Part shown: piece by piece, positions 11,756-64,000 of the stretch | Position numbering within the stretch: position 1 is the first letter of the stretch | Layout of the letters: each line of letters opens with the position of its first letter | Assembly (NCBI GenBank): GCA_051294375.1 | Contig: CM119268.1 | Span: 981,218 to 1,045,217 of the forward strand | Source of the DNA: Paraspadella gotoi | Lineage: Eukaryota; Animalia; Chaetognatha | Direction: 5' to 3' | DNA length: 64,000 nucleotides | Program-made: the position numbers and the translations under genes | The notes under the pieces: model-generated | What the model saw: only the letters and a program-made list of their open reading frames with translations | Databases searched by the model: none | What the model was told of the DNA's origin: nothing

Positions 11756-11888
11756 TTCATTTAATAAATAAGCTATCTTGCCCCCGATTTGGGACAGGCT
11801 TTAGTGGTTTAAGGCCTCCATCACTCTTACAAGATAATGACATAGCATGTCCCTGCAAGCTTTCAATCAAGACTCTCTCACAGTCTCT
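11756..11888 (-). mobile_element. Dispersed repeat family B copy
   Basis: near-identical reverse complement of ~5262-5391. Confidence 0.68.
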
Positions 11889-18860: not shown

Positions 18861-19186
18861 GCTCACCCTCTCACATTTCCCAAGGGTCCAATTTTCAAAC
18901 TGCGTCTTCCCTCCCACTTTTTCTCGCTAAATCGTTTTCTTCCTCCCAAACGTGGGAGGAAAAAAAAAAACCCAGGCCGAAGATTCGGGCGCCCGCGCGT
19001 GGAAGGACAACAGTGGAAAACGACGACCAAAACAGCAACAACAAAAAACAGCAACAACAAAAAACAGCAACAACCAAAAATCAGCAACAACCAAAATACA
19101 GCAACAACCAAAAAACAGCAACAACAAAAAACAGCAACAACCAAAAAACAGGAACATCAACAGCGTCTGCATTATCGCGATTACGG

Positions 19187-21465: not shown

Positions 21466-22790
21466 GCGACGACGACAACGACGACGAAAACGACGTACGA
21501 AAACGACGGACGGAAAACGACGACGAAAACGTGACGACGGAAAACGACGACGAAAACGCGACGAAACGAACGACGAAAACCGACGACGAAAACGACGACG
21601 AAAACGACGACGAAAACGACGATCGAAAATCGACGACGAAAACGACCGAAAAAACGACGACGAAAACGACGACGAAACACGACGAAACGACGCGAAAAAC
21701 GAGCGACGAAAACGACGACGAAAACGACGACGAAAACGACGACGAAAACGACGACGAAAACGACGACGAAAACGACGACGGGAAAACGACGACGAAAACG
21801 AGCGACGAAAAACGACGACGAAAACGACGACGAAAACGAACGACGAAAACGACGACGAAAAACGACGACGGGAAAACGACGACGAAAACGACGACGAAAA
21901 CGAGCGACGAAAACGAACGACGAAAACGGACGACGAAAGACGACGAAAACGACGACGAGAAACGACGACGAAAACGACGACGAAAATCGACGACGAAAAC
22001 GACGACGAACGACACAAAGACGACGAGCGAAACGACGACGAAAACGACGACGAAAACGACGACGAAAACGACGACGAAAACGGACGCGAAAACGACGACG
22101 GAAAACGACGACGGAAAACGACGACTGAAAAAACGACGACGAAAACGACGACGAAAAACGACGACGAAAACGACGACGGGAAAACGACGGACGAAACGAC
22201 GACGAAAAACGACGACGAAACGACGACGAAAACGACGACGAAAACGACGACGAAACGACGCGAAAACGGACGGACGAAAACGACGACTGAAACGCGACGA
22301 AAACGACGACGAAAACGACGAGCGAAAACGACGACGAAAACGACGAACGGAAAAGAACGATACGAAAACGACGACGAAAACGACGACGAAAACCGACGAC
22401 GAAACGACGACGAAAACGACGACGAAAACGACGACGAAAACGACGGACGAAAACGACGACGAAACGACGACGAAAACGACGACGAAAACGACGACGAAAA
22501 CGACGACGAAAACGACGACGAAAACGACGACGAAAACGACGACGAAAACGACGACATAAACGACGACATAAACGACGCATAAACGACGACATAAACGACG
22601 ACATAAACGGACGACAAAACGCACGACATTAAACGACGACATTAAACGACGACATAAACGACGACCATAACGACGACATAAACGACGACATAAACGACGA
22701 CATAAACGACGAACATAAACGACGACATAAACGACGACATAAACGACGACAAAACGGACCGACATAAACGACGACATAAACGACGGACAT
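21466..22790. repeat. 12-bp minisatellite (GACGACGAAAAC)n, copy 2 (longer and noisier)
   Basis: same unit, same 3' variant and same flanks as copy 1. Confidence 0.9.
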
Positions 22791-29000: not shown

Positions 29001-32000
29001 CTCCCGCCTCTGCGCATTTCGGTGTTTACAATTTCTTAGATGTTCGTTTCCGCTACATCAATTCCCAGAGGACATCGTTGGTCTTTTTCTTCCAACCCCT
29101 ATTTGCTTTTGCACCCCTCTTCCGACACCCCCGGTTTTAGGTCACAAGGTTTTTTTTTTAACTATTCAAAATATTAAAAAAACAAGTTAAATACTTTTAT
29201 ACTTTTTTATACTAATTTAAAAAAAAATATTCTTACTAATTGACTAATTGACAAAGTTTGAGTACAAATAGTTTCAGCGTATAAAATTCGCATTGCACAA
29301 AAATAAGATATTTACAGAATTTCTAATAATAAAAAGTGATAAATGCTGGGAGGCCTTAACCTCCACATCCCTAACTCTATGAGAATCTATGAGTTCCCAA
29401 TGACCGTCTCTCAAGAAATAATCGAGTTTAATAAACGAAGCGGACCAAATCCATTGTTTGTCCTTTTGTTTTTAAAGTTTCTAAAGTCGCCCGGAAGATG
29501 GGGCGCGGGAAAGAGGAGGAGGAGGAGGAGAGGGGGAGGAGAGAAAGGGAGGAAAGTTTCAATGTTTCTTATTTTCTTCAATGTTTCTTCATTGTTTCTT
29601 CTTATTTTCTTCTTATTTTCTTCAATGTTTCTTCATTGTTTTCTCCGTTTCTTTTAATTGTCTCTATTTTAGTTCCTCTGCTAACCTCGTTCTCCCTTTT
29701 CCTCTTTCCTCTCATTCCCTTTTCCTCTCATTCCTCTCATTCCCCCCCAAACCCCCTTTTCCCCTCCGTAGTTTAACTCTGCGTAGAACCGACATCAATT
29801 CCGTTTCAACCGGGAGAGTTTGGACAAGTATTAGAACTGCCCTCGACGCCCTCTATTCCCTTTTTTTTCTCTCTTTTTGGGAAAGGAAGGGGATAGGAAG
29901 AAAAAAAAAGGAGGAAAGGGAGAAATAAATGTGAGAAAAAAAAAGGAAAGAGGAGATCCGAGTTCCCATAGGGGGAGGAAAGGAGAGGAAGTGCATTTTG
30001 CTTTTTTTTTCCTCTCCTCTGTGGTGGGCAACGCCTCCCAAGTTTTCATTGCCTATTTGACGGTGGATGGTTTTACGATGCTCGTCTCTATGGAGAGAGC
30101 GGTGGGTATTGGGGTGGGTATGGGGTGAAAAAGATGGCGGGGAAGTAGAGAGAAATAAAAGGAGCGGATTAGTAAATAGGGTAAAGAGAAAGAGAAAACA
30201 TTGGTAGGGCAGGGTGCAATCTGTGTGAAGTTACTCCGTCGTTTGAAAAGTAGATAGGGGAAAGAGAAAGAGAAAACATTGGTAGGGCAGGGTGCAATCT
30301 GTGTGAAGTTACTCCGTCGTTTGAAAAGGAAAGGAAAGATGGGGTAATTTTACTTTCGCCGACCGGGGTTAGGTTAAGGGTTAGGGGTGATTTAGGGGTA
30401 GTTTAGGATAAAAAGGAAAATTATGTACTTATTTTTATTTATTTTTTTTTAAAAATAAGTATTTTTAAGGAGTTTTTCAAAAAACGCCAAAACCTCGGTC
30501 GGCGAAAGTAAAATTTAGCCGAAAGAGGAATAAGGAACCAGCAGTGGGGGGGGGGCAAAGAAAATTAAATCCAAGAAGGAAAGAAAGTTCACAACCCGAA
30601 TAAATCGTAGAAAATAGAAAAAAAAATCGTAATAAAATTGAAAGAGAAAAAAAAAGTCGCGTCGCCGTTAGGAGGAAGAAAAGAGAAAATGTTCCGAGAA
30701 GAAAAGAGAAAATGTTCCGGGAGGCGGAATGAAGAAATAGTGACGAGAGATCGAGGTAAAAATAATATAATGTATTTGCCTGTTGACCTAAACGGACACT
30801 GCTGTATATTTTCCCCTACGACGCAGCAAACCAAACGTACGCTGGACGGTACGCAATTTTTTAACCTTTCACCGACGCAGTCATCTGGGTGCCAAGAAAC
30901 GACGCCGGTTTATGAAACGACGCCGGTTTATGATACAACCGGCGTTTTTATGATGAGAGAAAATCTTTTTCTGGTTACAATTGGAAATGGAAAAGAAAAT
31001 GTAATGAAAGCATTAAAATGGATTAAAATGCCCCCTACCGGATTAAAATGCCCCCTACCAAACCCCTCGGTTAAAATTAAAATGCCCCCTACCGGATTAA
31101 AATGCCCCCTACCGGATTAAAATGCCCCCATTACCGCACAAAAATGCCCCCCGCCGTATCAAAATTTCCGCCGTCGGATAAAAATTACTTGGCGCTAAAA
31201 CGAAAACGATGTCCTCCGGCAGGAATACTTCGAAAAAAGAAAATTTCCGGTCTCGGGGACAGAAATTTTCTCCTCATTAGATTGAAAACTTGTGCCTCTT
31301 GGCTCGAATAGATGCGTCCTTCTGGCACGAACCAAACCCTGTCCCTTTCCTTCTTTCGGGTCATAAAATAATCCCTTTCGTTCCCCGGCCGCGATCCCTT
31401 CGTTTCTCGGCCGCGATCCCTTTCGTTCCCTGGCCGCGATCCTTCTCGTTCCTCGGCCACGATCTTTATTGTTCCTCGGCCGCAATCCCCTTGTTCCCCG
31501 GCCGCAATCCCTTTTGTTCTTTCGGCCGCGATCCCTTTTGTTCCCCGGCCACGATCCTTATCGTTCCTCGGCCACGATCCCTTCCTTCCCCGGTCGCGAT
31601 CCCTTCCTTCCCGGCCGCATCCGTTCCCCGCCGCAATCCCTTTCGTTCCCCGGCCGCAATCCTTTTCATTCCCGGGTCGCGAACTTTTTTGTTCCTTGGC
31701 CGCGATCCCTTCGTTCCCAGGCCACGATCTCTTTCCTTCCCCAGCCGCGATCCCTTCGTTCCCCAGCGGCGATCCCGCTTCAACTTCTTTTCCTCCACCG
31801 CGTGAAAATTTTCTCGGTCCGGATTTTGGAAAAAAAATCGACGGCGGAAATTTGGGTTTGTTTATTTTTCCGGCAGAATTATTTTCCAAAACATTTACCT
31901 CTCGACTCACGTTTTTAGTTGCGCCGCGAGTACTCGCGGAGCAACTCTATAAGTCACTTTTCGGTCGGTCTGTCGGTCGGTCAGTCGGTCGGTATGTCTG

Positions 32001-35000
32001 TCCATTGGTCTGTCCCAATTAGGTTAAAAATGCTAATAACTCGCATATAGTTGGTTGCTATGAATTTGTTTAGACAGGAAAAAACCTTAAATCTAAGGGA
32101 CTGCTTTCAGGAAATAAAAAGACAAAAGACAAAATTCCGATGCAGTGCTTGTCATAAATACGCCGGCTAAGAAAGTTATGTCATGTTATGTAATGTCATG
32201 TCATGTCACAAAAAACTGCAGTGACTGCGGCGCAACACGGCGTATTACCGTTCTTGTTTTTGTTGTTTTGCTCCCTTTTTCATTTTTATGTGATGGGCTG
32301 AGGGCGAGGTGGAGGCGAAGGGGGCGGGGGGAGTAGTTGGGAGTGGATTAGGGGGGAAGGGGTGAATGTGGGTGGTTGGTGAAGTAATATCATAATAGTT
32401 GTGCGCTGAATTCATTGATATATATACGCGAAAACGTGGGACGGCATATCATGTAGTGGATTGGTTATAGCTGAATAACCCGTGATAATGAATTAATATG
32501 AATTAATATGAATTAATATGAATTAATTCTGCGTTCTAGGCCGTTGAGCCAAAATAGTTGAATTATTTTTCCGAGTGGCAATAATACGCCTGGGTTCATT
32601 TTTTGCTTCCCTTTCGTTCCTTCCGACTAAACGTAGGACGAAATTAAAAAAAATGAGGCCGAAAATATTTTGAAAACGCAAATTGAATTCCATCCGCTAG
32701 AAACGGAACGAGACAATTATCTCGAAATGAAATCGATGAAAAATAGTTAAAGCGAATTGAGGTGAAGCTTAAACGATTTAAACGAGGTTTTATTATTGTG
32801 GGCGTCGACTTGGGTTGTCGTACTGATTTCAGAATATTTGCATATAATTTAATCTTACGTTTAACATATAGGGAGATAGAGACAGAATTTTCACTAATGT
32901 GTTTTTAGAAAATAATTAATTATTCCAGATGAAACTTGACGACGAAGTCAAAAGTTTTTTTCATCGAATTTACATCATTTCACGTTATCGATTCGTTAAA
33001 AAAATGTTTATGATAAATCCTAAAAATACAGTGGCGTACTTTATTTTTACAGTTGTGTTCGGCGAACACGATCCCGAGAAACACAGTCCCGACTTTCTCA
33101 AAGAGTTCGTGCTGCTGCCGCGGACGCTGACTGTGGAGGAGACTGCGCTGGATGAACTCACCCACGAAGTCGTCGTCGCTCATTCAAATCTCTTGGGTGA
33201 GTTGAGGGGAGGGAAGTAATGAGGGAAAACGAATCTGGCTTAGAATGGGAATATATTTCTTTTTCATAAAGCGATTTAGCTCAAAGATTGTGGAATTGGT
33301 AATCTTTATTGTAATAATTAATCGCAACTTTCTTGCACTGAAGCTTGCAAGAAACGACCCAACAAAATTGATGCATGTCGGGGCGCCATCGCTTTCAGTC
33401 TCACTCTTCTGCCCCCGCTCCCGCTTTAATTGCTGGCCTATCCTCTCTCTCTCTCTCTCCTCTCCCTCTATCTCCCCACTCCCTCTCTCTCCCCCCTCCC
33501 TTATCCCTCTCCTCCTCCCTTTTTCCCCCCTCTCTCTCTCCCTCCTCCCTCTCCACTAATCCCTCTTCCTATCTCTCTCTCTTTCCCTTTCCTCCCTCCC
33601 TCTCCCCCTCCCCTCCTCTCTCTCCCCCCCCTCTCCTCTCTCCCCCTCCCTCTCTCTCTCCCCCCCTCTCTCTCTCCCCCTTCCTCTCTCTCCCCCCTCT
33701 CTCTCTCCCCCCTCTCTCTCTCCCCCCTCCCTCTCTCTCTCTCCCCCCTCTCTCTCTCTCCCCCTCTCTCTCTCTCCCCCTCTCTCTCCTCCCCTCCCTC
33801 TCTCTCTCTCCCCCCTCTCTCCTCCCTCCTCCTCCCTCCCTCTCTCTCTCCCACCTTTTTCCTTTCCACGCGGTTTTAAAAAACTCAAAACGCGTTTCTA
33901 TGGCAACCAAATTCAACTGATTTTCCGTTCATTCAAAATTTCAAAAAGCGATTTAAATGAAAAAAAAAAATCCATTTTGATTTCTCGTTTCTGTCCAGTC
34001 CGTCCGTTCGAAGCTTGTTTTGATGGCATTGTATCGATGGCATTGTATCGATGGCATTGTATTGATTTTTTCAGGGATGAACAGAGAGATAGCGGAGCTT
34101 CACTACATCGTGGAAGCCATGCAGCTCGACGGGTACGGAATGGAGTTCTACGCCGTCAAGGACCGGTGAGGAAATTCCGGAAACGAATCAAATCCCGAAA
34201 ATGTTCTCATCGTTTTACGATTCTTTTTTTTTTTTAAACGAACCATTCCATCCGTTGACGCAGGATGGCGCTGATCTCTACCTGGGAACTTCGAGTATCG
34301 GACTCTGCGCTCGACATCTCGACGGTCAACCGCCGACGTGGTACAAGTGAGTTTCATCGCGAAAAGGCTCATTTACTATTTTTCCGCTGCTGTTTTGTTT
34401 TTTTTTCGTTTCGCATGTTGTAAAGAAGAGGTCCTCTTGATCGACTTTTTCTCACGGCCGAAAAAAAAACAAAGTAGCAAGGCTCTATCTTTATACAAAT
34501 TAATTAAGCCATCGACGATCTAAAAGCTAAAAAAATAATTAGTTAAAATGTTATACTTAAGGTGGAACGATATTACCAACATCAGCCACAACAAACGAGC
34601 GCTCACGATAGAACACAACCAGGTAAAAATGAAACTGTTATTTTTAAAAATTCTTGGATTTAATTGAATATTTTCTTAACATATAGAATTTGTCGAGAAG
34701 CGAATCTTCGATCGACGATCTTTCGCCCGAAACGACGACAACAACAACAACATCGAGTCAAGTCTCTCACTTTTACTTCGAGGATCCAGAGACGACGAAA
34801 TACACGTGGAAGATGTGCTCGCTGCATCATAGGTCCTTACTTAATAGCTTAATTTAATAACTTAATTTAATAAGTAAACTTTAGAACACTTCGCTCTCTA
34901 ATGATCTATTTCGTGCTCTATTTAGTACAGTTAATTTAAATTTCAATCTATATTTAAAAGGGGTTGAATTAATAATTAGTTATCTAATCGATTGTCAGAT

Positions 35001-38000
35001 TCTTTCGTTGTTCTGATGATGGCGACGTCTTGTATTCGGACGACGAACTCAACGATTTGACGGCGACGAAATCGGAAATCGATCTCAGGTTTGAACCAGT
35101 TTCATCCGGTTTTAATTGAAGCGATTTCAGTTTAATACGGAATCTTTATCTGATTTAAAAAAAGATTAATCCTTACTCCCCGTTTCCCTGTTTTTTATTT
35201 GTTTTTTTATTGTTTTTTTTGTTTTGTTTTGCAGAGATTTAAATTCCCCCACCGAAGGAAGCCAAGATCAAGTGAGTTCCGAATTTTTTTAATTATTTCC
35301 CATTGATTATTACAAATTTAAATGATTATTAAATGATTACTAAATGATTATTACGAATTTCAATGATAATAACAAACGAGCCTAAATAATTAAGAGCGTT
35401 AAAAACAAAATGATTTGACTTCAATCACATCCACTTTGATCGTTTTCAAGAATCGTGTTCAGATCGATTCCCAGACGCCGCATCTTGTCTCTTATCATAT
35501 TTTTAGTCTCCGACGGCATCGACGTATTTCTGTAGAATCGGAAAAAAAGATTGTCTCGTTAGTTGCGCCGCGAGTACTCGCGGGGCAAACTCTCAATAAG
35601 TCACTTGTCGGTCGGTCGGTCGGTCGGTATGTCTGTCTGTCCGTCGCTCTGTCCCAGTTAAATTTTAAAAAATGTTTATAACTCGGTTATTACTTCATCA
35701 ATTTAGTTTACGTTTGGTATGAAAGTGAAGTAACATAACACCTTTAACATGCATATATATTATATTTGTGAAGTCACGCGATCACATTAGAAAGCGGATC
35801 ACATTACCCAAAATTTAAAGCGGCTTAAATTTGGTTGCTCTTTTTTTTTTATTATCGCTGTCTTAAATATTAGCTCTTACGAGCGCTACCTTTTTTTAAA
35901 AGAATAACTGACGAATTCCGATGCAATGCCGTACAATGCCGTACATCGAACATACACGTAACTCGGGATTATAATGACCGTTCTTGTTTTTTTTACTCTC
36001 GATAACGGAACAGGGAGATCCTTAAAAAAAACTCTGAATTAGTCCTGACCTCGACGCGATCCAAATGATCTCCTCGTAACCGAAGATCGGAATCTTGACG
36101 CAAGTGAAAGTGACGGCGAACGATTCGTAGTCAGTCATCAAGACGCGAAGATCGCTGGAGAAACTGAGACCCATCGTGTTGATGTTGAGGTCCATGCGTC
36201 CCCCGTCAGACTCGGAGTATCTTCGGTTAAATATTTTTTTACAATAATATTCAAGTTATATCAAGTTAATGTCATTATTAACTCTTTCTTGCCTCTCTCT
36301 GCTTCACTATATTTCGTAGTTGAGAATCCAATGTACTTACGTTCCTCGGTGAACCTCGAACCAATCGGGGCGCTTGTCGAGAATGCTGGAAACTTTAAAA
36401 ATGACGCCGTGTTTTCCCGGCTCCAAGAGGTTGCTGCTCACCTGAGATTAGTCGGCGAAACTTATCAATTTTGTGTCATCGCCAGTTTCAAACAATTGAT
36501 TCACAATTGTTGCGGGAATGACTCTTCAGTCTACAGTCACAAACCTCACCGCAACAGCGGAGCATCTTCCGTTTCCTTGTAGGTCGTAGCTGTTCTTCTT
36601 GTGCATGATTATTGGCCAACGTCCGTTGAATCTTGGGCGCCAAATAAATTTGAAAACATTATGACCGACATAATTGAAATGGCAACCAATATAAAATTAT
36701 TCATTCGTTTAATAAATAAGCTATCTTGTCCCTGACTCCATCACTCCATCACTCTTACAAGATAATGACATAGACTCTCTCACAGTCTCGTTTATTCATT
36801 ATATCTTTCCATTTCAAAACAAGTATCATTCACAATGATCACTAAAACCATGGAATTTCATCATTTAACTGTGACTTTCACCCACAAGTGAACCTTTCAA
36901 TCTCGACCTCCTTCATTGGTGCCGCGTCGTTGCATCGAGATCCGGCGAAGAAAAATCCGTCACAAAATCGAAGAAAAACGAAACAAATGAACAACGAAAA
37001 TAAATAAAAGTGAAAGGATTTCATCGTTGGTCGTAAATGAATGAATCAAATCGAATTCTTAACTGAAACGTCGTTTCTGTTTGGTGAATGAACTAGCGAC
37101 GGACAAGGGGAAAGAGGAAAGAGAGAAGAGGAGAGGAGAGAGAGAGAGAGAGAGAAATTTGCATATTCATGCGATTCCTTTTTTCCGATTCCCTAGTTTA
37201 CCGCATTTTCCTTTCCTATTTCTTTTTATTTTCTTTTTTCTTTTTTTCTTTTCCTTTTCGTCGAATCGATGTTTCGTGGAGATTCTTTCGCCCGATCGTT
37301 TCGTCGCTAATTGGATCAGTGGCTAGGGTTTTTTTTTTAGTTGCGCCGGAAGTACTCGCGAGCAACTCTATAAGTACTTTTCGGTCGGTCTGTAGGCGGT
37401 TTGTGTCTGCCATTCGATTGTCCCACTTATGTTAAAAATTTCTTATAACTCGACTATAGTTGCTCTTTTGTTGAGAAGGAAAAACTCCTCAATCTAATAG
37501 GACTAGCGTCGCCTTCAGGAAATCCTAAACTAAAAAATGGGATTACGATGCAGTTGCGTGTCATAAATACATATTGTACGTCATCTCGCGTCATGTCATG
37601 TCACTGTCACGAAAGAAGGATAGCTGGCATTTTGAATATAAAATGTCACTGCGGCCGAACACATTGGATGAACGATCTTTTTTTTTCCCTTTTTTAAAAA
37701 GAGAATAATTCGCGAAAATGTTTAAAAAATCGGATGTTCGAGTTTGAAAGGATGGAATTTGAAAAGGGGGAAATTCCCTGAGGGCAAAAAGTCAGTAAAA
37801 AGTGAAAAAGTTGGAAAGTAATTGTTTTTTTTTAAATGTAGAAAGACTTTCCATTTACGAGTTGGTAAATTTATGAGCTCTTTTCAAATCATCTTAAAAA
37901 CGGTTAAACTGTAAACGATCTCTTTAACTATCATTAACAACATTTCATTTGAATTCAATAGAGCCAAGCTTTTTTTTATCATCATCATTTCGATTTTAAA

Positions 38001-39251
38001 GTTTCTCTTTTTAATTTTTTTTTGTTTTTCAGTTTCCCACTGCAATCATCTTCCCTCAAGACGACGGAGCTTCGCTTGGTAAGTTTCTTTTTCGGTTTTT
38101 TTTTTTTTGTTAATCTTCTCTCTTTTGACGCGTAATTCCTTCTCAAATGACTTTAACTTTTCCAAAATTCTCCGATTTTTCGTATGATTTTTCGAGGATC
38201 GACGACTTTTAAATGACAAAAAATATTTTCCCTCGAATTTGATCGACTTTTAGGAAATTTAGGGATTTAGGAAATGAATGTAAAAATGTGAATGATGAAA
38301 AATATGTAATTGACCGAATTTGGGCTCCTTTACGCACGCACGCTCTCTCGCTCTCTCAATCTCTCTCTCTCTTGTAAGCCGATGCTTCCAACGTTGAAAG
38401 ATTCCAAATTTAAATACATAAAATTCCGAACGGATTAAAGGATAACCCAAGATATAAACACGGATTCTCTAAAATCACCGGAATTATTTTTTTTTTATTT
38501 CTGATTCATTAAAAAAAACCTGGATTTTGGCATTCACTCGATAAAACGAGACCTTGGAAATCGGAATGTTCCAAAGGTGCGAGAGAGAGAGAGAGAAAGA
38601 GAAAGAGAGAGTAAATAAAATCCCTTTTCGAAAAAGAAAGATTTTGTCGGGGATTAAGCCGATCGGTGGAGCTTAAACGGTATTCGATTCTCGAAAAGCG
38701 ATACTTTTGTTTTTTACTCGAAGGTAAACACCTAGGCAAAGTGACACAGTTTTTCCTACAATTCTCTATCGAGGTCAAATCCCAACCCCCTGCAGGGAGG
38801 CGACAATGGAAGAGAGAGTGAGAGAGTGAGAGAGAGAGAGAGTGAGAGAGAGAGATGGAGCGAGAAAAAGAAAAGCCTTTTGTTTCCTTAACTAATTTTT
38901 ACGACGGTGTCACTCTTTCGGGATATTTCGGCGTCGAATTCTATCGACTTTTGACGACTTTATCGTTGTTTACGACGAGAGAGAGAGAGAGAGAGAGGAA
39001 ACATTGTTCGTTGAGATTGATGGTGATTTGCAGGAGTTTCGGTGACTTATTGCTCATGGAAGAAATTGTTGGTCCATAGACTTTTCTTGCAAATTTCTCC
39101 TTTGCTGAATTTTTTTTTCAAATATGATTTCCTCTGAACTCATTCAGTCTATGCGATGCGAGATTTCACGATTTGACGAGTCTGAACTTTCTTGGACAAA
39201 ATGAATTCTCACGAGTTCATCGAAGATTAATCTTGTGAATCGCCTTTTGGA

Positions 39252-39298
<47 letters not shown>

Positions 39299-42200
39299 CA
39301 AACCCGGGAATTTAATTGAATGCGGAAACTCTTTTTATTTTTTCCAATTTCCTGTTGAATGTTTAGTTTTTCACTGTCGCCGATGCTGTCGTCGTCCTGG
39401 TCGTTAANNNNNNNNNNGTCGTCGTCGTCTTCATTTGTATTATTGAGTTTGTCCCAATCCTCAACCCGACAGTTGTCATAATAGTGGTCGTCGTGGTTTT
39501 CGTCGTCACGATCGTCTTTCTTATAATCGGGGGACCACTGGTCAAAGGGTCCAGTGGTCATTGTTCAGTTGGAGGTTTTTTTTGTTCCTTCAAGATAGTC
39601 ATTGCCTCCATGATCGTCATTGCTCTCTTGGTAATCATTACCGTCGTTTCATTGCTTTTTCTAGTTGTAGTTTTTGGGTCATCTTTTTTGTCAACGTTGA
39701 TGGGTTAAAAATTGTCGCTACGCACTAGCGGTTTTCTATTAACTTAAATTCTGTCATTGAATTTTGAATTTCTTATCCTTGTTTTCTTAAAACTCTCTGG
39801 TGGTCGGGGAATTTTCTTCGTCGTCGTCGTCGTCGTCGTCGTCGTCTGCGACAAGGAGAGACGAAATAAAAATTTACGCCTGGATTTTTCTTTGTCAACT
39901 TTTTCTTTTTCTTTTTTTCACTTTTTTTTTTTTGCCCTTTTTGATTTTTGATCTTTTTCCTCGATCGGAATAGAAATGGGAATAAAAATAGGAATAGGAA
40001 TAAGAATAGAAAATGGAATAGAAATAGGAATTATCTTTTTCTTGTCTTTTTCCCAAACCTTCTCCTCCTACTTTTGGTCTTCGTCGTCGTTTTCGTCGTC
40101 GTCTCGTTCGTTTCTTTTTTTCCACTGAAAAAATTTAAATATTTTATTACTATTAAATATTAAAATTTATTAATATATATATTAAATATTAAAATTTAAA
40201 TATTTTATTACTATTTAGACAGTGGATTCTAGGGTGGAGTGATGAAAAGATTGAGCGATTGAACATTATTTTTTTGTTTTTTATAGACATGTAATTAACA
40301 AATTTTAAATCTTTTATAAAATTTTTTTTAAGCATAACAGTATAGTAAAACCAATTATTTATGTAATAATAACCTTGTAAAATCATTAAATTTCAAAATA
40401 TTTTTTTTTAAACAAGATTTGGTTTTGTCTTAAAAACTAAAATTTTTTTTATAAAATATGTTATATGATATTTTAATTTTTAGACCGTAAACAATGACTA
40501 AAACGTTTTAACATATAAAAGTTTCTACTAAAGAGAATAAAAAAGTCAGAAATTTATACCTTTTTTCCCCGTTTTAAATACTGAAGATGACAGAATTTTT
40601 CATAATATGTTTTATATTTTTGTTTTAACTTTTTATAAAGAATCTGAATCTTTATTAAAAAGTATTTTTAAAATTTATTATTTTACAAGAATATTACTAT
40701 AAATATATTTTATTTTACTATTGTTCCCGAGATAATATAAACAAAATATTTTTTGTACTAGTTCATCATACTATCTCACATCTAAATATCCTTGTTTTGT
40801 TCAGTCAAATTTTTTTTTTCTTGAGTGGACACATTTTATTTTTTTTTCTCTTGTTTGTTTTTAAAAATCTTAATATCTTGACAATGAGAAGGAACGCGAA
40901 TAGATATGATGACTCTGACATGTCATCAAGTGCTGTATTAATGTCCAAGCCGTTGCTCGCGTTGTCTGTCAATAAGTCGTCATCATCTTCGTCATTCCTC
41001 AATGTCAGTCTTTTTCCTTTTCACTCTTTTTGTCGTCGAAGTTGGCATCCAGACTTTTCATCGTAATCGTGGTGTCGTCGTCGTCGTTGTCGTCGTCGTC
41101 GCTTTCCATCGTCATCTCACTCTTCCCCTTTTTTCCACTTCCTCCTCCTCCTCCTCCTCTTCCTCCTCCCTCGGGATGTTGGGATTCAGATCATCTCGAA
41201 CCTTTTTTTTCCCCGACAAAACTTTTTTTTATTCCACCCCAAAAAAAAAGAGGAGGAAGAGGAAACAAAGAAAAAGAAGAAAAACAATCAACAAGAGGGA
41301 ACAAAGAGAAGAAAGGAAAGAAAAAAAAATTCGTTCTACCAATTATGTTTCTGGATCCTTTTTCTTCTCATTCGTTATCAGCTTTTCAGTTTGCCCGGTT
41401 TTCTTCGCTAGAAATTGTGGGGAAATAAGAAATTAAAAGGAAATTAANNNNNNNNNNAAATTAAAAAAAGAAAAAAATTAAAAGGAAATTAAAAAAAAGA
41501 AAAAAAAATTAAAAAAATTAAAACAAGAAAGAAATTAAAAGAAAATAAAAAAAAAGAAAAAATTAAAGAAAATTAAAAAAAGGAATTAAAAGTAAATTAA
41601 AAAAAAGAGAGAAATTAAAAGAAAATTTAAAAAAGGCGAATCGATGACTGCGTCTGGTAAACAAGAAAAAAAAGAAGAAAAAAATAAAGGAGAAGAGAGA
41701 AAAAGGGAAAAGTCTTGGCTAAAAAGAAATTAAGAAAAAAAAAAGGAAAAAGCGATTCGCGTTTGAAAAGGAAAAGGGGAAAAGGGGAAGGAAATTATCG
41801 ATCGCTTAGCGAAACGACGACGACGACGACGACGACGAAATCCACGACGATTGAATTAAATTCTAAAATTCTTCTCGTTTCTTTTTCTTATCTCATCAAA
41901 TAATCGTCGTCCGCCATTTTTTTTCAACAACAACAACAACAACAAACTCGAAACAACGACCGATCGATCGACAAAAAAAAACAAAAAAAAAACAAAACAA
42001 AAACAAGACGAGCTCGACTCTCCCTTCTCGGCGCCCAACTTCCGCCTTCCGCGCGTCACTTCCGGATTTCCGGCGCTGACGTCGACGCCGGGATCCGGCG
42101 CCGACGCCGTCGAGGACGACTTCGCGTCTCTCGTCGCCGCCGGCGTCGCCGCCTCCAAGTCTCTGCCGCAGCTGCACCGCCTTCAGTCCACGCAGTTCCT

Positions 42201-60400: not shown

Positions 60401-63400
60401 GACCTGCAGTGACCAACCCACGTCACTGGCGTGCTCATACCGGCACCATCACACTTGACCGTGAGGGGATTAAAGCCGGAACTAACGGTTGGTAAGCGAG
60501 TAGTTTGCTGTCCAAGGTAATGAGACAAGCTGGGTTTTACCAATCTATACGAGAGGAGAATTCAGGATTCGCCCCAGTGGTTCCGATTGTTTTTGTAAAT
60601 CTCGGTCCCTTAATTCTTGATATTTCGATTCCTCCTCTTTTTCTTTCTTTTATTCGTTCTTTTCTTTCCTTTCTTTTAATTTAATACCACTTGTTTACTT
60701 TCCCCTTTATCCAGTTTCGTCTCCCGCCATGTTGAACCAAAGCGCTGAGATCGAAAGCGTCGGGTCTTCTCCCTCGGCCGGGGGCGGCGCTGGCGTCGAC
60801 GGCGAAAAAGAATCGCGTCGTCATGACAACGAGAGAAACGACAAACGCGACACGGCCTACGGGACGGACGAGGAGCGGGAGGAGGAGGAGGAGGAGGAGG
60901 AAGAGAACGGGAAAAGTTACAGGTGAGTCTTATTGCTATTTTGGAGTAATTAATTAGTTGCGCCGCGAGTACTCGCGGAGCAACTCTATGAGTGACTTTT
61001 CGGTCGGTCTGTCTGTATGTTTGTCCGTCCGTCTGTCTATCTTACGTTAAAAATGCACATAATTTGCCTATAGTTGCTCATTTGTTAAGACAGAAAAAAC
61101 CTCAAATCTAAGGGACTGCTAGCGCCGCCTTCAGGAAATACTAAAACTATAAAGAATGAAAGACGCAATTCCGATGCAGTTCGCGTCATAATTATTGGTA
61201 GTCATGTCGCGTCATGTCATGTCATGTCCTGTCACGAGAAATACACGTTAAAATAAAGTCACTGCGGCGCAACACATCGGATGTACTGATCTTGTTTTTC
61301 TTTTAATCGTGTCTTTTATTTTTTTTCCACAATTTGGGTTTTTATTGTCAATCAGTGATTCAGTATAATTTTTATCTGGGAAGGTCCCGCCAATTTAATC
61401 GGCACCGAAATGACGTACCACAAAACTCTTTTGATAAAGAACAATACTAATTGCTCTGACAATAAAAAAAATAAAATCGAATTAAACCATTACGTCATAA
61501 CGTGTGACAGTCGGAATCCGAAGGCGGATAAAATAAACTAAAAAAACTCGATTCCAACTCGATAACCAGTTTCTATCGCTGAATAAAATCCACTTAAATT
61601 AATCGGTTTCGAAATTTTTAAACGTTTCGTTTTTCGCTACTTTTGCGATATTTGCAGTTGGGGTCCGATGAAGATGGCGGCGATGAACGGTTTAGCGCTG
61701 ACGACGCCAGAGGCGCTCTCGGTCTTGTCGGGGCCGGACAAAAGAGCGCCGCCGACGGACGAAAGAATTCGGGAGTTGGAAAATAAAATCAAAGGGGGAC
61801 AGGTGAGCAAACTTATCTAAGGAAAGGATTATACTCTTGCAAGGAAGAATCAGAATGTCTTGATCGTGGCGTTTTTAATGATTTTTCCGAGTTTTTGTTT
61901 TGTTTTTTTTTTGGTCCGTTTATCAATCTACGAGTTTGAAGAGACAGTAATAATTGTTATGAGTTAGTGACAGAAGCGTTCAATATAACGTTGACGTTTA
62001 GTTGAACGTTTTGATGATAAGATCGTCGCTCTTAACTTTTGAACGCGTTGGTGGATTTTAGTCCACCATAAGTTTTACTTACTTTTTGCCTCTTCACTTT
62101 CACTCTTCACTTGTCGGCATTTTCATTTTTTACTTCCTATAATTCATATTTTCTCTCACTTTAACTTACACTTTAAACTCTCGTCTTTTTCCCTAATCAC
62201 TTTCACCGATTTCCCCCCCCTTCCCCCCCCCCCTTTCTCCGCACCCCAGGTCTTCGCGGAGTTCGAGAAGATCCCGCGAAAGAGACCCAACATGTTGATG
62301 GACGTGACGACGGCGTCGGCGGAGGAGAACGAGTCACGGAATCGCTTCAAGGACGTCCTGCCCTACGAGGACACGAGAGTCAAACTCAAACCGACGGGCA
62401 GCAACCCGGCCGGCTACGTCAATGCCTCGCACATTCAAGTAACGGAGTTTATAGGGCGGTCTATTAGTCGGTTTGAATAATTTTGCTTTCTTTTAAGTCA
62501 TACCGAATATGATTTGATTAAAGTTGATATTGCACTATGACTAGTAATTAAACAAAACCAAATAAACAAGATTTTATGGCTGCGTTTCAAAAAAAAAAAA
62601 TATATATATATATATAATTATTAATTATAAATATTTTTCAAATTATCAATATTTGAGGCGGAATAAAAAATCTAATTAACTTTTTATTAAATTTAATCAA
62701 ATCAAATATATATTTATTATTATTAAATTCAGGTTCAGTACCAGGACGTGTCCTTGCGCTACATCGCGGCACAAGCCCCGATGGGCAACACGGTGGCGTC
62801 GTGGTGGGCGCTCATTTGGGAGAACGACGTCAGGATCATCGCCATGTTGACCGACGTCGGGGGTCAGAGGTAAAGGAGGGCCCCCACTATAGGGTGGATG
62901 ACGGAAAATATCACAGGGCCTCGCTATCGAGACAGAACGACTGTAGGGTTGGTGATAAACGCGATTAAGGGAAGGGCAAAGGTCACAGGGTTGAGAATTA
63001 GGGGGGGGTTCAAACTTCATAGTTAGGAAGTGGAAGTCGTATTTCACCGTTTCAGTGTGTGGAAGGCCTTATTGGAATTGTAAAAGTTTAAACTGTCAAA
63101 GTTGTAAAACAAGGTTGGCCGATAATTAAAATTCGAGCAAGAGAGCGGCGTCGTAGCTCGGTTTCGCTTAATCCTCACCCCGTCCGCAGCCCGTCGACTT
63201 ACTCCGCTAAACCCACCAAACCGACCTCGCCTATTGGATCGAGCAGAAGCTTTCCTTACTTTCCCGATACCGTAGGGAACAAGAGCAAGTTGAAGTTCGG
63301 AGAAGTAAGTTAACATTAACCTAAGAAAATTGAAATATAAACTTGGAAATAATCCTGCTATTTTTCCCACAGTTCCATGTGTCTCTCCAACTGTGCAACG

Positions 63401-64000
63401 CGGCGCCCTCATACGTCACCAGATGCTTGCTCGTCAAAAACGTCAAATCGAAGGAGGAACGTAAAGTGTGGCATCTCCAACTCACCGAATGGCCCGACCA
63501 TGGATGCCCAGAGGATGTTCATAGTTTTTTGGGTAGGCTTACTTTAAATGTTAATATAATTGTGAATTTAATTATACTTAATTTGTCCTGCGTTTTATTT
63601 TCGCAGCCTACATCGAAGAGCTGGAGTCCATCCGTCGACACGTGGCGTCCGAGGCGCAGACGACGAAATCCCGCCAATCAGCGACGAGATCAAATTCCAA
63701 CCAATCGGAGAAGAGATCGACGCTAACTGCCGGCGCTTCGCTGTTCGGCGGGAGGGGATCGTCCGGAAGCCGCAAGTCCGACCCAATAAGTAAGTTACTA
63801 CTTCGACTGGTTTGATTAACACATTGTAATTAAAAGAATACGATTGATTAAAAATCATATTTAACTTGTTTTGGCTGTGCAGGTCCTCCGAAATCACCCA
63901 CGCAATCCGCCGACGCTCCGCCGCCGCCGACGCTTGTCCACTGCACCGCCGGCGTCGGCAGAACCGGCGTACTCATCCTCACCGAAGTCATGATGGCCTG
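25966..64000 (+). CDS. PTPN14: FERM-domain non-receptor protein tyrosine phosphatase, PTPN14/PTPN21/Pez family; multi-exon, partial at both ends
   Basis: 32 manually spliced GT-AG exons. They give FERM F2/F3 motifs ([50 protein letters not shown]), family linker motifs ([30 protein letters not shown]) and a PTP domain ([44 protein letters not shown]). Probably the single invertebrate co-orthologue of PTPN14 and PTPN21. Confidence 0.93.
26440..26589 (-). mobile_element. Dispersed repeat family C copy (abuts N gap)
   Basis: reverse complement GAGTGCCCCATTTCTGTT...AATCCCTAACC resembles 42972-43115. Confidence 0.48.
30183..30328. repeat. ~70-bp tandem duplication
   Basis: AGAGAAAACATTGGTAGGGCAGGGTGCAATCTGTGTGAAGTTACTCCGTCGTTTGAAAAG occurs twice. 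Confidence 0.88.
30343..30520. mobile_element. MITE-like element with ~27-bp terminal inverted repeats
   Basis: AATTTTACTTTCGCCGACCG.GGTT ... AACC.CGGTCGGCGAAAGTAAAATT; interior GGTTAGG-like repeats; no clear TSD. Confidence 0.6.
31020..31150. repeat. 20-bp tandem repeat (GGATTAAAATGCCCCCTACC)
   Basis: about 5-6 units. Confidence 0.85.
31370..31778. repeat. 21-22-bp minisatellite (TCGTTCCCCGGCCGCGATCCCT)
   Basis: about 18 diverged units. Confidence 0.88.
31917..32258 (+). mobile_element. DINE-1/HINE-like non-autonomous Helentron, copy 1
   Basis: 5' hairpin AGTTGCGCCGCGAGTACTCGCGGAGCAACT, (GGTC/GTCT)n microsatellite, 3' subterminal IR GCGGCGCAAC, short stem-loop, TCTTGTT end, T-rich flanks. 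Confidence 0.8.
33053..33196 (+). CDS. PTPN14: PTP exon, FERM F2
   Basis: ttacag / [48 protein letters not shown] / gtgagt. Confidence 0.92.
33440..33852. repeat. (CT)/(C)n polypyrimidine tract
   Basis: nearly pure C/T. Confidence 0.88.
34075..34165 (+). CDS. PTPN14: PTP exon, FERM F2/F3
   Basis: tttcag / [30 protein letters not shown] / gtgagg. Confidence 0.9.
34264..34346 (+). CDS. PTPN14: PTP exon, FERM F3
   Basis: cgcag / [28 protein letters not shown] / gtgagt; 1-nt phase conflict with the preceding exon. Confidence 0.85.
34562..34622 (+). CDS. PTPN14: PTP exon, FERM F3
   Basis: cttaag / [20 protein letters not shown] / gtaaaa. Confidence 0.9.
34687..34832 (+). CDS. PTPN14: PTP exon, FERM F3 with S/T-rich insert
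   Basis: atatag / [49 protein letters not shown] / gtcctt. Confidence 0.87.
34999..35088 (+). CDS. PTPN14: PTP exon, end of FERM and start of linker
   Basis: tgtcag / [29 protein letters not shown] / gtttga; phases consistent. Confidence 0.82.
35235..35271 (+). CDS. PTPN14: PTP linker micro-exon
   Basis: strong pyrimidine tract + gcag / [12 protein letters not shown] / gtgagt. Confidence 0.75.
35421..35529 (-). CDS. lipocalin exon 5 (C-terminal helix, stop)
   Basis: ttctacag / [35 protein letters not shown]. Confidence 0.92.
35421..37024 (-). CDS. Secreted lipocalin, apolipoprotein D/Lazarillo-like, 197 aa, 5 exons, nested antisense in a PTP intron
   Basis: complement(join(35421..35529,36050..36220,36341..36441,36550..36631,36894..37024)) = 594 nt from ATG to TGA. 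All introns are GT-AG and in phase. Hydrophobic signal peptide, GxW motif (RFNGRW), [23 protein letters not shown]-terminal [16 protein letters not shown], 4 Cys in the mature chain. Confidence 0.93.
35561..35988 (+). mobile_element. DINE-1/HINE-like element, copy 2 (divergent interior; lies in the last lipocalin intron)
   Basis: same 5' hairpin and (GGTC)n; shared AATTCCGATGCA block; CCGTTCTTGTT end. Confidence 0.72.
36050..36220 (-). CDS. lipocalin exon 4 (SCR2 TDY, SCR3)
   Basis: ccgaag / [57 protein letters not shown] / gtcagg. Confidence 0.93.
36341..36441 (-). CDS. lipocalin exon 3
   Basis: ctaatctcag / [34 protein letters not shown] / gtaagt. Confidence 0.88.
36550..36631 (-). CDS. 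lipocalin exon 2 (SCR1 GxW)
   Basis: cccaag / [27 protein letters not shown] / gtgagg. Confidence 0.9.
36894..37024 (-). CDS. lipocalin exon 1 (signal peptide)
   Basis: [44 protein letters not shown] / gttcac. Confidence 0.87.
37339..37680 (+). mobile_element. DINE-1/HINE-like element, copy 3
   Basis: colinear similarity to copies 1 and 4, inserted in a T run. Confidence 0.75.
38033..38078 (+). CDS. PTPN14: PTP linker micro-exon
   Basis: long T tract + cag / [15 protein letters not shown] / gtaagt; phase 0 to 1 fits neighbours. Confidence 0.72.
42008..42280 (+). CDS. PTPN14: PTP linker exon (symmetric, poly-Gly; possibly alternative)
   Basis: 273-nt GC-rich open frame [17 protein letters not shown]...[11 protein letters not shown]...GGGGGGGGGG...VVE; phase 1-1; atypical A-rich acceptor. 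Confidence 0.62.
42972..43295 (+). mobile_element. Dispersed repeat family C with degenerate CCTAA repeats
   Basis: first ~145 bp align with the reverse complement of 26440-26589; internal IR TTTTCCAAGA...TCTTGGAAAA. Confidence 0.5.
43396..43674 (+). CDS. PTPN14: PTP linker exon, Q/P-rich
   Basis: ctcaag / [13 protein letters not shown]...QQPPQQP...SSPETRET / gtgagt. Confidence 0.78.
44083..44165. repeat. 10-bp tandem repeat (ATTATATTAA)n
   Basis: about 8 units. Confidence 0.9.
44624..44818 (+). CDS. PTPN14: PTP linker exon
   Basis: cccag / [23 protein letters not shown]...PRTRDPQ / gtgaac; open in phase 0-0, which conflicts with the preceding donor phase. Confidence 0.62.
45488..45535 (+). 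CDS. PTPN14: PTP linker micro-exon, poly-Q
   Basis: tggcag / [16 protein letters not shown] / gtgagt. Confidence 0.72.
48345..48580. repeat. ~66-bp diverged tandem repeat x3
   Basis: recurring GTCATT.AGCTTCTCTTT and GTCATT...CTTCAC blocks. Confidence 0.65.
51025..51172 (+). CDS. PTPN14: PTP linker exon, S/Q-rich
   Basis: tttcag / [14 protein letters not shown]...[27 protein letters not shown] / gtgata. Confidence 0.75.
53120..53324 (+). CDS. PTPN14: PTP linker exon
   Basis: tcccag / [21 protein letters not shown]...FAQRVPEYR / gtaggt. Confidence 0.85.
53927..53989 (+). CDS. PTPN14: PTP linker exon with conserved TPDYE motif
   Basis: gtttag / [20 protein letters not shown] / gttagc; resembles PTPN14/21 YRPTPDYETV. 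Confidence 0.87.
54640..55283 (+). repeat. ~30-bp tandem array (~22 units) made of a 3' splice site plus exon start
   Basis: unit TTTTTATTTTYTCAAG|GTCATCCCATATCA; the last unit runs into exon 55270-55340. Confidence 0.9.
55270..55340 (+). CDS. PTPN14: PTP linker exon starting in the last unit of the splice-acceptor tandem array
   Basis: ctcaag / [24 protein letters not shown] / gtgaga; supplies the phase 2 to 1 bridge required between the flanking exons. Confidence 0.78.
55624..55876. repeat. 17-bp tandem repeat (GCRATTAAATTGCAAAG)
   Basis: about 15 units. Confidence 0.9.
56248..56584 (+). CDS. PTPN14: PTP linker exon
   Basis: aatcag / [12 protein letters not shown]...(STNQLH)x3...SQIQSIR / gttaat; this donor was chosen by phase. 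Confidence 0.78.
56655..56828 (+). CDS. PTPN14: PTP linker exon with PPPY motif
   Basis: ttccag / [13 protein letters not shown]...NGLSNG / gtgagg. Confidence 0.83.
56940..57175 (+). CDS. PTPN14: PTP linker exon
   Basis: cctcag / [11 protein letters not shown]...[12 protein letters not shown] / gtaaaa. Confidence 0.8.
57575..57700 (-). mobile_element. Dispersed repeat family B copy
   Basis: CCTCCATCACTC.TACAAGATAATGACATAGC...CGTTTATTCA.TCCCAGAGTA block shared with the other copies. Confidence 0.62.
57759..58141 (+). CDS. PTPN14: PTP linker exon
   Basis: tgtcag / [14 protein letters not shown]...SYSVPDLH...HKSVTRLT / gtaaga. Confidence 0.83.
58311..59022 (+). CDS. PTPN14: PTP linker exon (largest)
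   Basis: ttccag / [13 protein letters not shown]...[12 protein letters not shown]...LEEKP / gtgagt; 712-nt open frame. Confidence 0.83.
59412..59747 (+). CDS. PTPN14: PTP linker exon
   Basis: cttcag / [10 protein letters not shown]...[11 protein letters not shown]...LNQLQAVL / gtaagt; an upstream AG at 59391 is possible but out of phase. Confidence 0.72.
59964..60311 (+). CDS. PTPN14: PTP linker exon
   Basis: cgccag / [13 protein letters not shown]...APPLPLRRR...SEIRNT / gtaggg. Confidence 0.8.
60349..60573 (-). mobile_element. Putative SINE, second copy
   Basis: shares both ends (TATGGCAACGGGG and AGGATTCGCC) and the GCTGTCCAAG block with the reverse complement of 6415-6580. Confidence 0.5.
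60715..60922 (+). CDS. PTPN14: PTP linker exon, acidic
   Basis: atccag / [15 protein letters not shown]...[14 protein letters not shown] / gtgagt. Confidence 0.8.
60956..61296 (+). mobile_element. DINE-1/HINE-like element, copy 4
   Basis: intact 5' hairpin, (GTCT/GTCC)n, GCGGCGCAAC subTIR, ATCGG-ATGTA-CTGAT stem-loop, CTTGTT end. Confidence 0.8.
61658..61802 (+). CDS. PTPN14: PTP exon, conserved pre-catalytic region
   Basis: ttgcag / [14 protein letters not shown]...[15 protein letters not shown] / gtgagc; resembles PTPN21 GPLKLAALNGL...DER. Confidence 0.9.
62250..62438 (+). CDS. PTPN14: PTP catalytic domain exon
   Basis: [12 protein letters not shown]...[38 protein letters not shown]. Confidence 0.95.
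62733..62869 (+). CDS. PTPN14: PTP catalytic domain exon
   Basis: [45 protein letters not shown]. Confidence 0.94.
63190..63304 (+). CDS. PTPN14: PTP catalytic domain exon
   Basis: ccgcag / [38 protein letters not shown] / gtaagt. Confidence 0.88.
63373..63532 (+). CDS. PTPN14: PTP catalytic domain exon (WPD loop)
   Basis: [53 protein letters not shown]. Confidence 0.95.
63607..63789 (+). CDS. PTPN14: PTP catalytic domain exon with long insert
   Basis: tcgcag / [24 protein letters not shown]...SRKSDPI / gtaagt. Confidence 0.9.
63883..64000 (+). CDS. PTPN14: PTP catalytic domain exon (P-loop), truncated by window end
   Basis: [39 protein letters not shown]. Confidence 0.96.

What the first reader, a model, noticed from the sequence alone, without database searches (positions are those of the whole stretch)
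35421..37024. Complete ApoD-like lipocalin gene nested antisense in a PTP intron
Seen: five in-phase GT-AG exons on the minus strand give a 197-aa protein with a signal peptide, GxW, TDY and WIxSR motifs and 4 Cys. It lies wholly within the 35272-38032 intron and is invisible to the ORF track. Its stop is only ~150 bp from the donor of the PTP micro-exon, so the 3' UTR may overlap PTP exons antisense. Known: ApoD/Lazarillo lipocalins carry small hydrophobic ligands (lipids, bilins, carotenoids). The sequence is divergent (GRWPII rather than GxWYEI). I know of no conserved nesting of a lipocalin in PTPN14/Pez, so it may be lineage-specific (inference).
Basis: partly seen in the sequence, partly recalled or inferred. 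Interest (0 to 1): 0.72.

Follow-up and report, generated by a model that had tools for sequence, protein, structure and literature searches.

The report
Lipocalin gene inside a phosphatase intron
A five-exon gene, seen spliced in one public sequencing run, lies on the opposite strand inside an intron of an animal tyrosine-phosphatase gene and encodes a lipocalin that is predicted to be secreted and likely carries small fatty molecules; it is a real but ordinary member of a large known family, in a common kind of gene arrangement.

Summary
Observation confirmed; the finding is ordinary. Five minus-strand exons (37024-35421) give an open 197-aa protein. All four introns appear as CT..AC joints in contigs of one public run. 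The protein matches a profile of 161 lipocalin domains over most of its length: 56.8 bits against at most 3.0 in 500 shuffles. It has the GxW, TDY and SCR3 Arg motifs, four cysteines in the ApoD/Lazarillo pattern and the ApoD pocket Trp. The host is a FERM-PTP gene of the PTPN14/21 (Pez) type; its transcript contig covers the exons before the intron and skips the lipocalin region, but the exact downstream junction was not displayed. A 69%-identical relative keeps intron 4 and exon 5; whether it is nested too is unknown. Two oddities: Pro after the SCR1 Trp (0 of 153 domains), and intron phases 2,0,2,2 instead of the published lipocalin pattern 0,2,1,1,1. The proposed antisense overlap of the 3' UTR with the host micro-exon is possible but not shown: RNA cover ends 24 nt past the stop. 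Ligand, fold and secretion are untested.

The parts
36894..37024 (-). Lipocalin exon 1 (start codon, predicted signal peptide 1-23, Cys31)
   Evidence: RNA contig covers 37073-36894 and joins to 36631
37025..37073 (-). 5' UTR, at least 49 nt; no leader sequence seen on the contig
   Evidence: record 5 starts at 37073; a contig end is not a transcript start
36550..36631 (-). Lipocalin exon 2 (SCR1 GRW, Cys67)
36341..36441 (-). Lipocalin exon 3
   Evidence: dropping it costs 7.7 bits
36050..36220 (-). Lipocalin exon 4 (SCR2 TDY, Cys145, Trp158, SCR3)
35421..35529 (-). Lipocalin exon 5, coding part (N163 sequon, C-terminal helix region, Cys196, stop)
   Evidence: conserved in relative P0026 in a shifted frame
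35288..35293 (-). ATTAAA, candidate poly(A) signal 128 nt after the stop, inside the host intron
   Evidence: use untested
35194..35211 (-). Two AATAAA hexamers, 210 and 222 nt after the stop, beyond the host micro-exon; they lie in the complement of the host's pyrimidine tract
   Evidence: use untested
37039..37164 (-). Candidate TATA-less core promoter: initiator-like hexamers at 37091, 37066 and 37044, octamer at 37164
   Evidence: consensus matches only (the octamer occurs 6 times in the window)
35272..38032 (+). Host intron (2761 nt, GT-AG, phase 0) that holds the lipocalin gene
   Evidence: frame open across it; host contig skips the region
35235..35271 (+). Host 37-nt micro-exon (length not a multiple of 3)
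   Evidence: bin depth 21.7 fits the host contig's 70.7 over 34 nt
34999..35088 (+). Host exon just after the FERM_C-matching exons
   Evidence: contig of 1822 nt, depth 70.7; frame
38033..38078 (+). Host exon after the intron (46 nt)
   Evidence: strong acceptor and donor, in frame; junction not displayed in RNA
34075..34832 (+). Host FERM exons (FERM_M, FERM_C pieces)
   Evidence: Pfam E 0.005-0.03, each below the curated cut-off on its own
62250..64000 (+). Host PTP-domain exons, closest solved structures PTPN21 and PTPN14; the gene runs off the window end
35559..35685 (.). Dispersed repeat copy in lipocalin intron 4; a longer copy lies upstream at 37337-37685
36683..36773 (.). Second dispersed repeat in lipocalin intron 1
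   Evidence: very high contig depth

Best explanation
This is an intact, spliced five-exon gene for an ApoD/Lazarillo-type lipocalin on the minus strand inside an intron of a PTPN14/21 (Pez)-type phosphatase gene; its product is predicted to be secreted and to fold as a lipocalin barrel, and it likely carries a small lipid-type ligand outside the cell, with the nesting likely incidental. Shown: open frame, the four splice junctions, strand (from CT..AC joints), full-length lipocalin profile match, host identity. Inferred steps: transcription from its own TATA-less promoter near 37090-37070; leader cleavage after Gly23, leaving 174 aa (about 19.7 kDa, pI 6.0); two disulfides, 31-145 and 67-196, by analogy with ApoD (pairing recalled); possible N-glycan at Asn163; release as a soluble protein, as there is no C-terminal hydrophobic tail; a pocket lined by Trp158. 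Within this reading I put a lipid or sterol-type cargo (transport or stress buffering, as for ApoD and NLaz) at about 60%.
For: Open 197-aa frame. 4 of 4 introns as CT..AC joints, depth 4.7-7.9, no differing letters in the exon pieces. Profile of 161 lipocalin domains matches residues 29-181 at 56.8 bits vs max 3.0 in 500 shuffles; dropping any one exon lowers the score. W49, C67, C145, W158, C196 fall in columns conserved in 153-161 of 161 domains. Exon 4 and alignment A1 hit ApoD, crustacyanin, Bla g 4, RBP4 and sandercyanin in the PDB. Hydropathy peak 2.5 at residues 6-21. A relative is 69% identical over 49 aa with the same intron-4 point and a matching exon 5 (121 vs max 70 in 40 shuffles). 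Host: PTPN21/14 best, E 2.5e-14 and 8.3e-14 vs 1.1e-10 for the next PTP.
Against: One run, one study, contigs only; the tool lists it as RNA by guess. Unspliced contigs also cross introns 2 and 3 at depth 2-2.8; retention would stop the frame after residue 78 or 105. No exon alone reaches a Pfam cut-off (best Triabin E 0.018). Pro after the SCR1 Trp is in 0 of 153 domains. Best identity to any full domain at hand is only 23-30%. The comparison set is all insect polycalin-type domains, 24 of its 25 proteins fetched with exon 4. The Met in the ApoD Met93 loop is not kept in the relative. Fold, secretion and ligand were not tested.
Confidence: 0.85

Rival explanations
1. Same gene, but the protein is a pigment carrier (carotenoid or bilin), as crustacyanin, insecticyanin and sandercyanin are.
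For: Crustacyanins rank 2nd to 5th for alignment A1 (E 0.004-0.018), next to ApoD (E 0.0026); sandercyanin and insecticyanin also appear.
Against: These scores rest on one exon and do not separate subfamilies; Trp158 aligns with the ApoD pocket Trp, where the crustacyanin alignments show Phe. No ligand data.
Confidence: 0.2
2. The nesting is functional: the lipocalin transcript runs antisense over the host's 37-nt micro-exon, or the two polymerases collide, so that lipocalin expression would lower inclusion of the exon and shift the host frame after the FERM domain.
For: Stop only 150 nt from the micro-exon donor; the nearest canonical AATAAA hexamers lie beyond the micro-exon; the micro-exon length is not a multiple of 3.
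Against: RNA cover ends at 35397; depth in the micro-exon bin is fully explained by the host contig (21.7 seen, 21.66 expected). An ATTAAA lies inside the intron, 128 nt after the stop. The AATAAA hexamers may be by-products of the host's pyrimidine tract. No skipped form of the micro-exon was listed.
Confidence: 0.08
3. A gland- or secretion-type lipocalin that scavenges amines or lipid mediators, like the triabin family or Bla g 4.
For: Best Pfam hit of exon 4 is Triabin (E 0.018); best PDB hit of exon 4 alone is Bla g 4 (E 0.0077); the divergent SCR1 suits a fast-evolving copy.
Against: Both hits are weak and under the cut-off; with the relative added ApoD ranks first; the relative's own best Pfam hit is Lipocalin; only one copy lies in the window.
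Confidence: 0.1
4. A decaying copy or a chance joining of exons.
For: Weak donor of intron 1, pyrimidine-poor acceptor of intron 3, low depth, unusual Pro50.
Against: All four junctions are used, the frame is open, every exon adds to the profile score, and a second species keeps exons 4 and 5.
Confidence: 0.03

Closest known systems
Apolipoprotein D (chordates; PDB 2hzq) and ApoD/Lazarillo-type invertebrate lipocalins (Drosophila NLaz, GLaz)
   Same: N-terminal leader, mature length about 170 aa, four Cys in the same order, GxW, TDY and SCR3 Arg, Trp at the ApoD Trp127 position, no membrane tail (ApoD features from PMC8530192 passages).
   Different: Pro after the SCR1 Trp; four coding introns in phases 2,0,2,2 (chordate ApoD has four coding exons, PMC8530192; the five-intron lipocalin pattern is 0,2,1,1,1, PMC3184775); Met93 equivalent not conserved; ApoD proper is described as a chordate gene, and orthology was not tested.
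Arthropod lipocalins: polycalin domains, crustacyanin (1gka, 4alo), Bla g 4 (3ebk)
   Same: The most frequent sequence hits of exon 4; colinear over about 150 residues.
   Different: Only 23-31% identity; one domain, not a multi-domain chain; no evidence of a shared ligand.
Antisense intronic (nested) genes, e.g. Drosophila 2mit in timeless2
   Same: Whole coding sequence inside one intron of a larger gene, opposite strand, own introns. Nested genes are about 6% of fly, 2.1% of worm and 0.5% of human genes (PMC3786989 passages).
   Different: This host-guest pair (lipocalin in PTPN14/21) did not come up; conservation of the nesting is untested.
PTPN14 / PTPN21 / Pez (host)
   Same: FERM exons, long low-complexity linker, PTP domain with WPD and HCxAGxGR motifs.
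   Different: The gene runs off the window end; two of my junction choices elsewhere in the gene do not keep the frame.

Membership tests
Lipocalin family | Full-length similarity to lipocalin domains | tested here: met
   Own profile of 161 domains from 25 proteins (4 of 4 scanned pass Pfam PF00061): 56.8 bits, positions 6-152 of 172, vs max 3.0 in 500 shuffles; exon 4 masked 8.7 vs 1.8.
Lipocalin family | Pfam PF00061 or PF08212 at the curated cut-off | tested here: inconclusive
   Only single exons were scanned: 1 of 5 gave a lipocalin-type hit (Triabin E 0.018, under cut-off); relative P0012 PF00061 E 0.014, under cut-off. The spliced protein was not scanned.
Lipocalin family | SCR1 (GxW) | tested here: met
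   G47 and W49 align with columns G 141 of 161 and W 159 of 161; the next residue is Pro, seen in 0 of 153 domains.
Lipocalin family | SCR2 (TDY) and SCR3 (basic residue) | tested here: met
   T134-D135-Y136 (146, 140, 147 of 161) and R162 (141 of 161).
Lipocalin family | Eight-stranded barrel with C-terminal helix | not tested
   No structure was predicted; the fold is inferred from the colinear profile match.
Lipocalin family | N-terminal signal peptide (most members) | tested here: met
   Basic N-terminus and hydropathy 2.5 over residues 6-21. Hydropathy only; SignalP is not available.
Lipocalin family | Binds a small hydrophobic ligand | not testable with these tools
   Needs a binding assay.
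Lipocalin family (typical, not defining) | Conserved intron pattern (phases 0,2,1,1,1) | tested here: not met
   Phases 2,0,2,2, or 2,2,2,2 with the alternative reading of intron 2, against the pattern quoted in PMC3184775. Positions could not be compared with real gene models.
ApoD/Lazarillo-type lipocalins | Four Cys for two disulfides | tested here: met
   C67 160 of 161, C145 161 of 161, C196 159 of 161. C31 aligns with the profile's first Cys in HMMER but fell in a gap column in MAFFT. Bonds not shown.
ApoD/Lazarillo-type lipocalins | Pocket Trp (ApoD Trp127) | tested here: met
   W158 aligns with the Trp of 2hzq thirteen residues after the post-TDY Cys; 153 of 161.
ApoD proper | Conserved antioxidant Met93 | tested here: inconclusive
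   M121 lies in the same loop but in a poorly aligned column and is Tyr in the relative P0012.
ApoD proper | Orthology to chordate ApoD in a tree | not tested
   Only insect domains were held; no tree was built. I file it as ApoD/Lazarillo-type, not as ApoD.
Nested antisense gene | Whole coding sequence inside one intron of a larger gene on the other strand | tested here: met
   FERM exons lie on one side and PTP exons on the other; the host frame is open across 35272-38032; the host contig (depth 70.7) does not cover the region. The junction 35271-38033 itself was not displayed.

The most novel reading that the evidence does not exclude
The lipocalin reached this intron as an intronless retrocopy and regained four introns at non-ancestral positions, and its 3' end now runs antisense across the host's frame-shifting 37-nt micro-exon, so that switching on a secreted lipid carrier would turn full-length Pez phosphatase into a FERM-only or degraded product in the same cell.
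Probability: 0.05. Interest if true: 0.55.

Novelty: new member of a known kind. Interest (0 to 1): 0.16.

Why it matters
Modest. It is a correct annotation of a divergent gene that ORF-based and probably automatic pipelines miss (no protein from this gene turned up). If the organism is an arrow worm, as an earlier unreviewed note suggests, it fills a gap in lipocalin sampling: one search found no paper describing a lipocalin of that phylum. The non-canonical intron phases make it a small test case for intron turnover in a family whose gene structure is used as a phylogenetic marker. It opens no long-standing question unless the antisense overlap proves regulatory.

Tried and rejected
No whole genome is held, so copy number and synteny are open. 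The search for homologous proteins with exon 4 found 0 of 2 candidates; with a polycalin domain 1 of 46, so no broad single-domain set or tree was possible. Metagenome scans: 0 of 299 stretches for the lipocalin; 3 of 304 for the host exon, none a close relative with the nested region. No second lipocalin in the window: tblastn and a profile scan of 2178 stop-free stretches found only this gene; a hit at 51619-51530 (E 0.07) lies among simple repeats without motifs and was rejected. PDB search with exon 5 gave 0 hits and with exon 2 only two lectin repeat hits, judged chance. ESM Atlas for exon 4: lipocalin clusters at 0.87-0.89, under 0.9, a lead only. A wider read-laying over the host gene gave no result, so the host junction across the intron rests and on frame. 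My idea that the host contig's remaining 603 nt match the predicted downstream exons (605 nt) was dropped, because that chain breaks frame after 43674. Horizontal transfer from bacteria: no support; of 10 hits looked up 9 are insect proteins and 1 is unnamed. No RNA holder on record was listed; the one run is RNA by guess. Supplements of PMC12460157: 0 hits in 3 files.

Full report
Observation. The five exons named by coordinates (minus strand 37024-36894, 36631-36550, 36441-36341, 36220-36050, 35529-35421) join through GT-AG introns of 262, 108, 120 and 520 nt into a 594-nt frame of 197 aa. GRW is at 47-49, TDY at 134-136 and WIASR at 158-162. There are six Cys, of which four (31, 67, 145, 196) lie after the hydrophobic leader (hydropathy 2.5 over residues 6-21). 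The donor of intron 1 and the acceptor of intron 3 look weak, so expression data mattered.

Splicing. One public run holds 0.21 of the sampled words of 34900-38200 (listed as RNA by guess). Laid on that stretch, its contigs show 4 of 4 introns as joints with CT..AC ends on the plus strand, i.e. GT-AG on the minus strand, at depths 4.7 to 7.9, with no differing letters in the exon pieces; cover runs from 37073 to 35397. Intron 2 was reported 5 nt shifted; both readings are GT-AG and give the same mRNA. Against: it is one run and contigs only, and unspliced contigs also cross introns 2 and 3 at depth 2-2.8. These may be host pre-mRNA, DNA or retained introns; retention would stop the frame after residue 78 or 105. 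The other joints in that table involve repeat copies and were disregarded.

Family. Exon 4 alone hits Bla g 4 (E 0.0077), crustacyanins and ApoD in the PDB (6 of 7 hits are lipocalins) and Triabin in Pfam below the cut-off (the other four exons gave nothing relevant). A search of 1.84 billion representatives returned 25 proteins; of 10 looked up, 9 are insect polycalin-type proteins and one is an unnamed 62-aa fragment, P0012. I cut 161 domains from 25 proteins (24 of those hits plus P0030; P0012 and P0026 left out); 4 of 4 scanned pass PF00061. The spliced protein scores 56.8 bits on this profile over positions 6-152 of 172, against at most 3.0 in 500 shuffles. Because the set was fetched with exon 4, I masked that exon: 8.7 bits remain against at most 1.8 in 500 shuffles. 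Dropping any one exon lowers the score. W49, C67, T134-D135-Y136, C145, W158, R162 and C196 fall in conserved columns. With P0012 added, ApoD ranks first in the PDB (E 0.0026) and W158 aligns with ApoD's pocket Trp. ApoD has a signal peptide, four Cys in two disulfides, pocket Trp127 and antioxidant Met93 (PMC8530192, passages). The protein is divergent: 23-31% identity to the best domains, and Pro after the SCR1 Trp in 0 of 153. M121 lies in the Met93 loop but is Tyr in P0012, so ApoD's redox role cannot be assumed. No structure was predicted and no tree was built.

Relative. P0012 and P0026 are 69% identical to exon 4 over 49 residues and lose similarity exactly after WIASR, where intron 4 lies. 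The tail of P0026, read in a shifted frame, can match exon 5 with score 121 (self 182; at most 70 in 40 shuffles). So a second organism keeps exons 4 and 5 and the intron point between them. Its contigs (822 and 2352 nt) could not be read, so nesting there is unknown.

Host and nesting. Plus-strand exons at 34075-34832 match FERM_M and FERM_C weakly, and exons from 62250 match the PTP domain above cut-off; PTPN21 and PTPN14 are the best structures (E 2.5e-14, 8.3e-14; next PTP 1.1e-10). Seven exons from 34264 to 43674 join in one open frame across a phase-0 intron at 35272-38032. A host contig of 1822 nt at depth 70.7 covers 34997-35088; depth 21.7 in the next bin fits 34 nt of the micro-exon (21.66 expected); several bins inside the intron have depth 0 to 10, so this contig skips it. 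The junction to 38033 was not displayed. Two of my junction choices elsewhere in the host break frame (34165 to 34264; after 43674); they do not touch the nesting. No second lipocalin lies in the window.

3' end. The stop is 150 nt from the micro-exon donor. An ATTAAA lies 128 nt after the stop, inside the intron; the first AATAAA hexamers are at 210 and 222 nt, beyond the micro-exon, within the complement of the host pyrimidine tract. RNA cover stops 24 nt after the stop codon. Overlap is possible, not shown. The micro-exon is 37 nt, so skipping it would shift the host frame; no skipped form was listed.

Gene structure. Lipocalin genes are said to share exon-intron structure (PMC2667264, passage); the five-intron pattern is 0,2,1,1,1 (PMC3184775, passage quoting Sanchez 2003, which I did not read). 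Here the phases are 2,0,2,2, at codons 44, 71/72, 105 and 162. From recall only, intron 1 lies one base before the first coding intron of human APOD and intron 4 a few bases after the canonical SCR3 intron; this comes from no call. Either intron sliding or loss and regain could explain it. An earlier unreviewed note reports intron-making transposons in this genome (e1-10599122), which I did not test.

How it likely works. Inferred: a TATA-less promoter near 37090-37070 (initiator-like hexamers) drives a minus-strand transcript; the leader is cut after Gly23; the 174-aa chain (19.7 kDa, pI 6.0) forms two disulfides, may be glycosylated at Asn163, and is secreted, as fly NLaz and GLaz and ApoD are (PMC2667264 passages); it carries a small hydrophobic ligand, most likely lipid-type. 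Pigment binding, gland-type scavenging and antisense control of the host are the rivals.

Novelty. Nested genes, often antisense, are about 6% of fly genes (PMC3786989, passages). Earlier notes report another ApoD-like lipocalin nested in an arthropod FEM1B intron (e1-9966798) and many nested genes in this genome (e1-10588303); both are unchecked leads. The taxon (arrow worm) comes only from note e1-10588039 and was not tested. Searches for this host-guest pair or for a lipocalin of that phylum found nothing relevant (0 papers; 73: 1 unrelated by its listing; 51: 1 unrelated by its listing; 52: 1 on a sponge); the library lacks most subscription journals. PMC12460157 (passages; 3 supplement files searched, 0 hits) does not mention lipocalins. 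PMC8420045 was read as abstract and parts 1-2 of 4 of the main text. Searches were seen as listings only. Verdict: a real gene, correctly read by the first stage, a new member of a known family in a common arrangement.

Noticed in passing
window:34075-34346: Host exon 34075-34165 ends in phase 2 but the next exon (34264) reads in phase 0 under the only GT-AG choices I found: a missing micro-exon, a non-canonical site or a one-base assembly error.
   Followed up: partly
window:43674-44818: The host chain loses frame between the exon ending 43674 and the candidate exon at 44624; a further exon or another donor is likely.
   Followed up: partly
window:35559-35685, 37337-37685, 31912-32213, 60954-61299: A dispersed repeat family (72-79% alike) with a short terminal palindrome and a GTCG/GTCT microsatellite; resembles non-autonomous helentron/DINE-type elements (label recalled). 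One copy is in lipocalin intron 4, one about 300 nt upstream of its start.
   Followed up: partly
window:36683-36773: A second high-copy repeat in lipocalin intron 1, with copies at about 5301-5412, 11738-11845, 47529 and 57609; contig depth above 30000 in this bin.
   Followed up: no
window:36201-36349: An unspliced contig at depth 2 differs from the window by two substitutions and a 5-nt insertion, all inside intron 3: probably another allele.
   Followed up: no
window:36549-36545 and 36441-36437: The same 5-nt word stands at the donor and after the acceptor of intron 2, so two GT-AG readings give one mRNA; such a duplication could be a trace of intron gain or sliding.
   Followed up: partly
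window:37063-37068: A TTTCAG in the 5' UTR could act as a trans-splice acceptor, but the contig runs 10 nt past it with no leader.
   Followed up: partly
P0027 vs window:62250-62438: An unnamed 211-aa protein is 92% identical to the host PTP exon, so a close relative is in the protein collection.
   Followed up: no
window:1-2500, 10700-11700, 18900-22700, 54600-55300: Long low-complexity or tandem arrays that give spurious long open frames.
   Followed up: no
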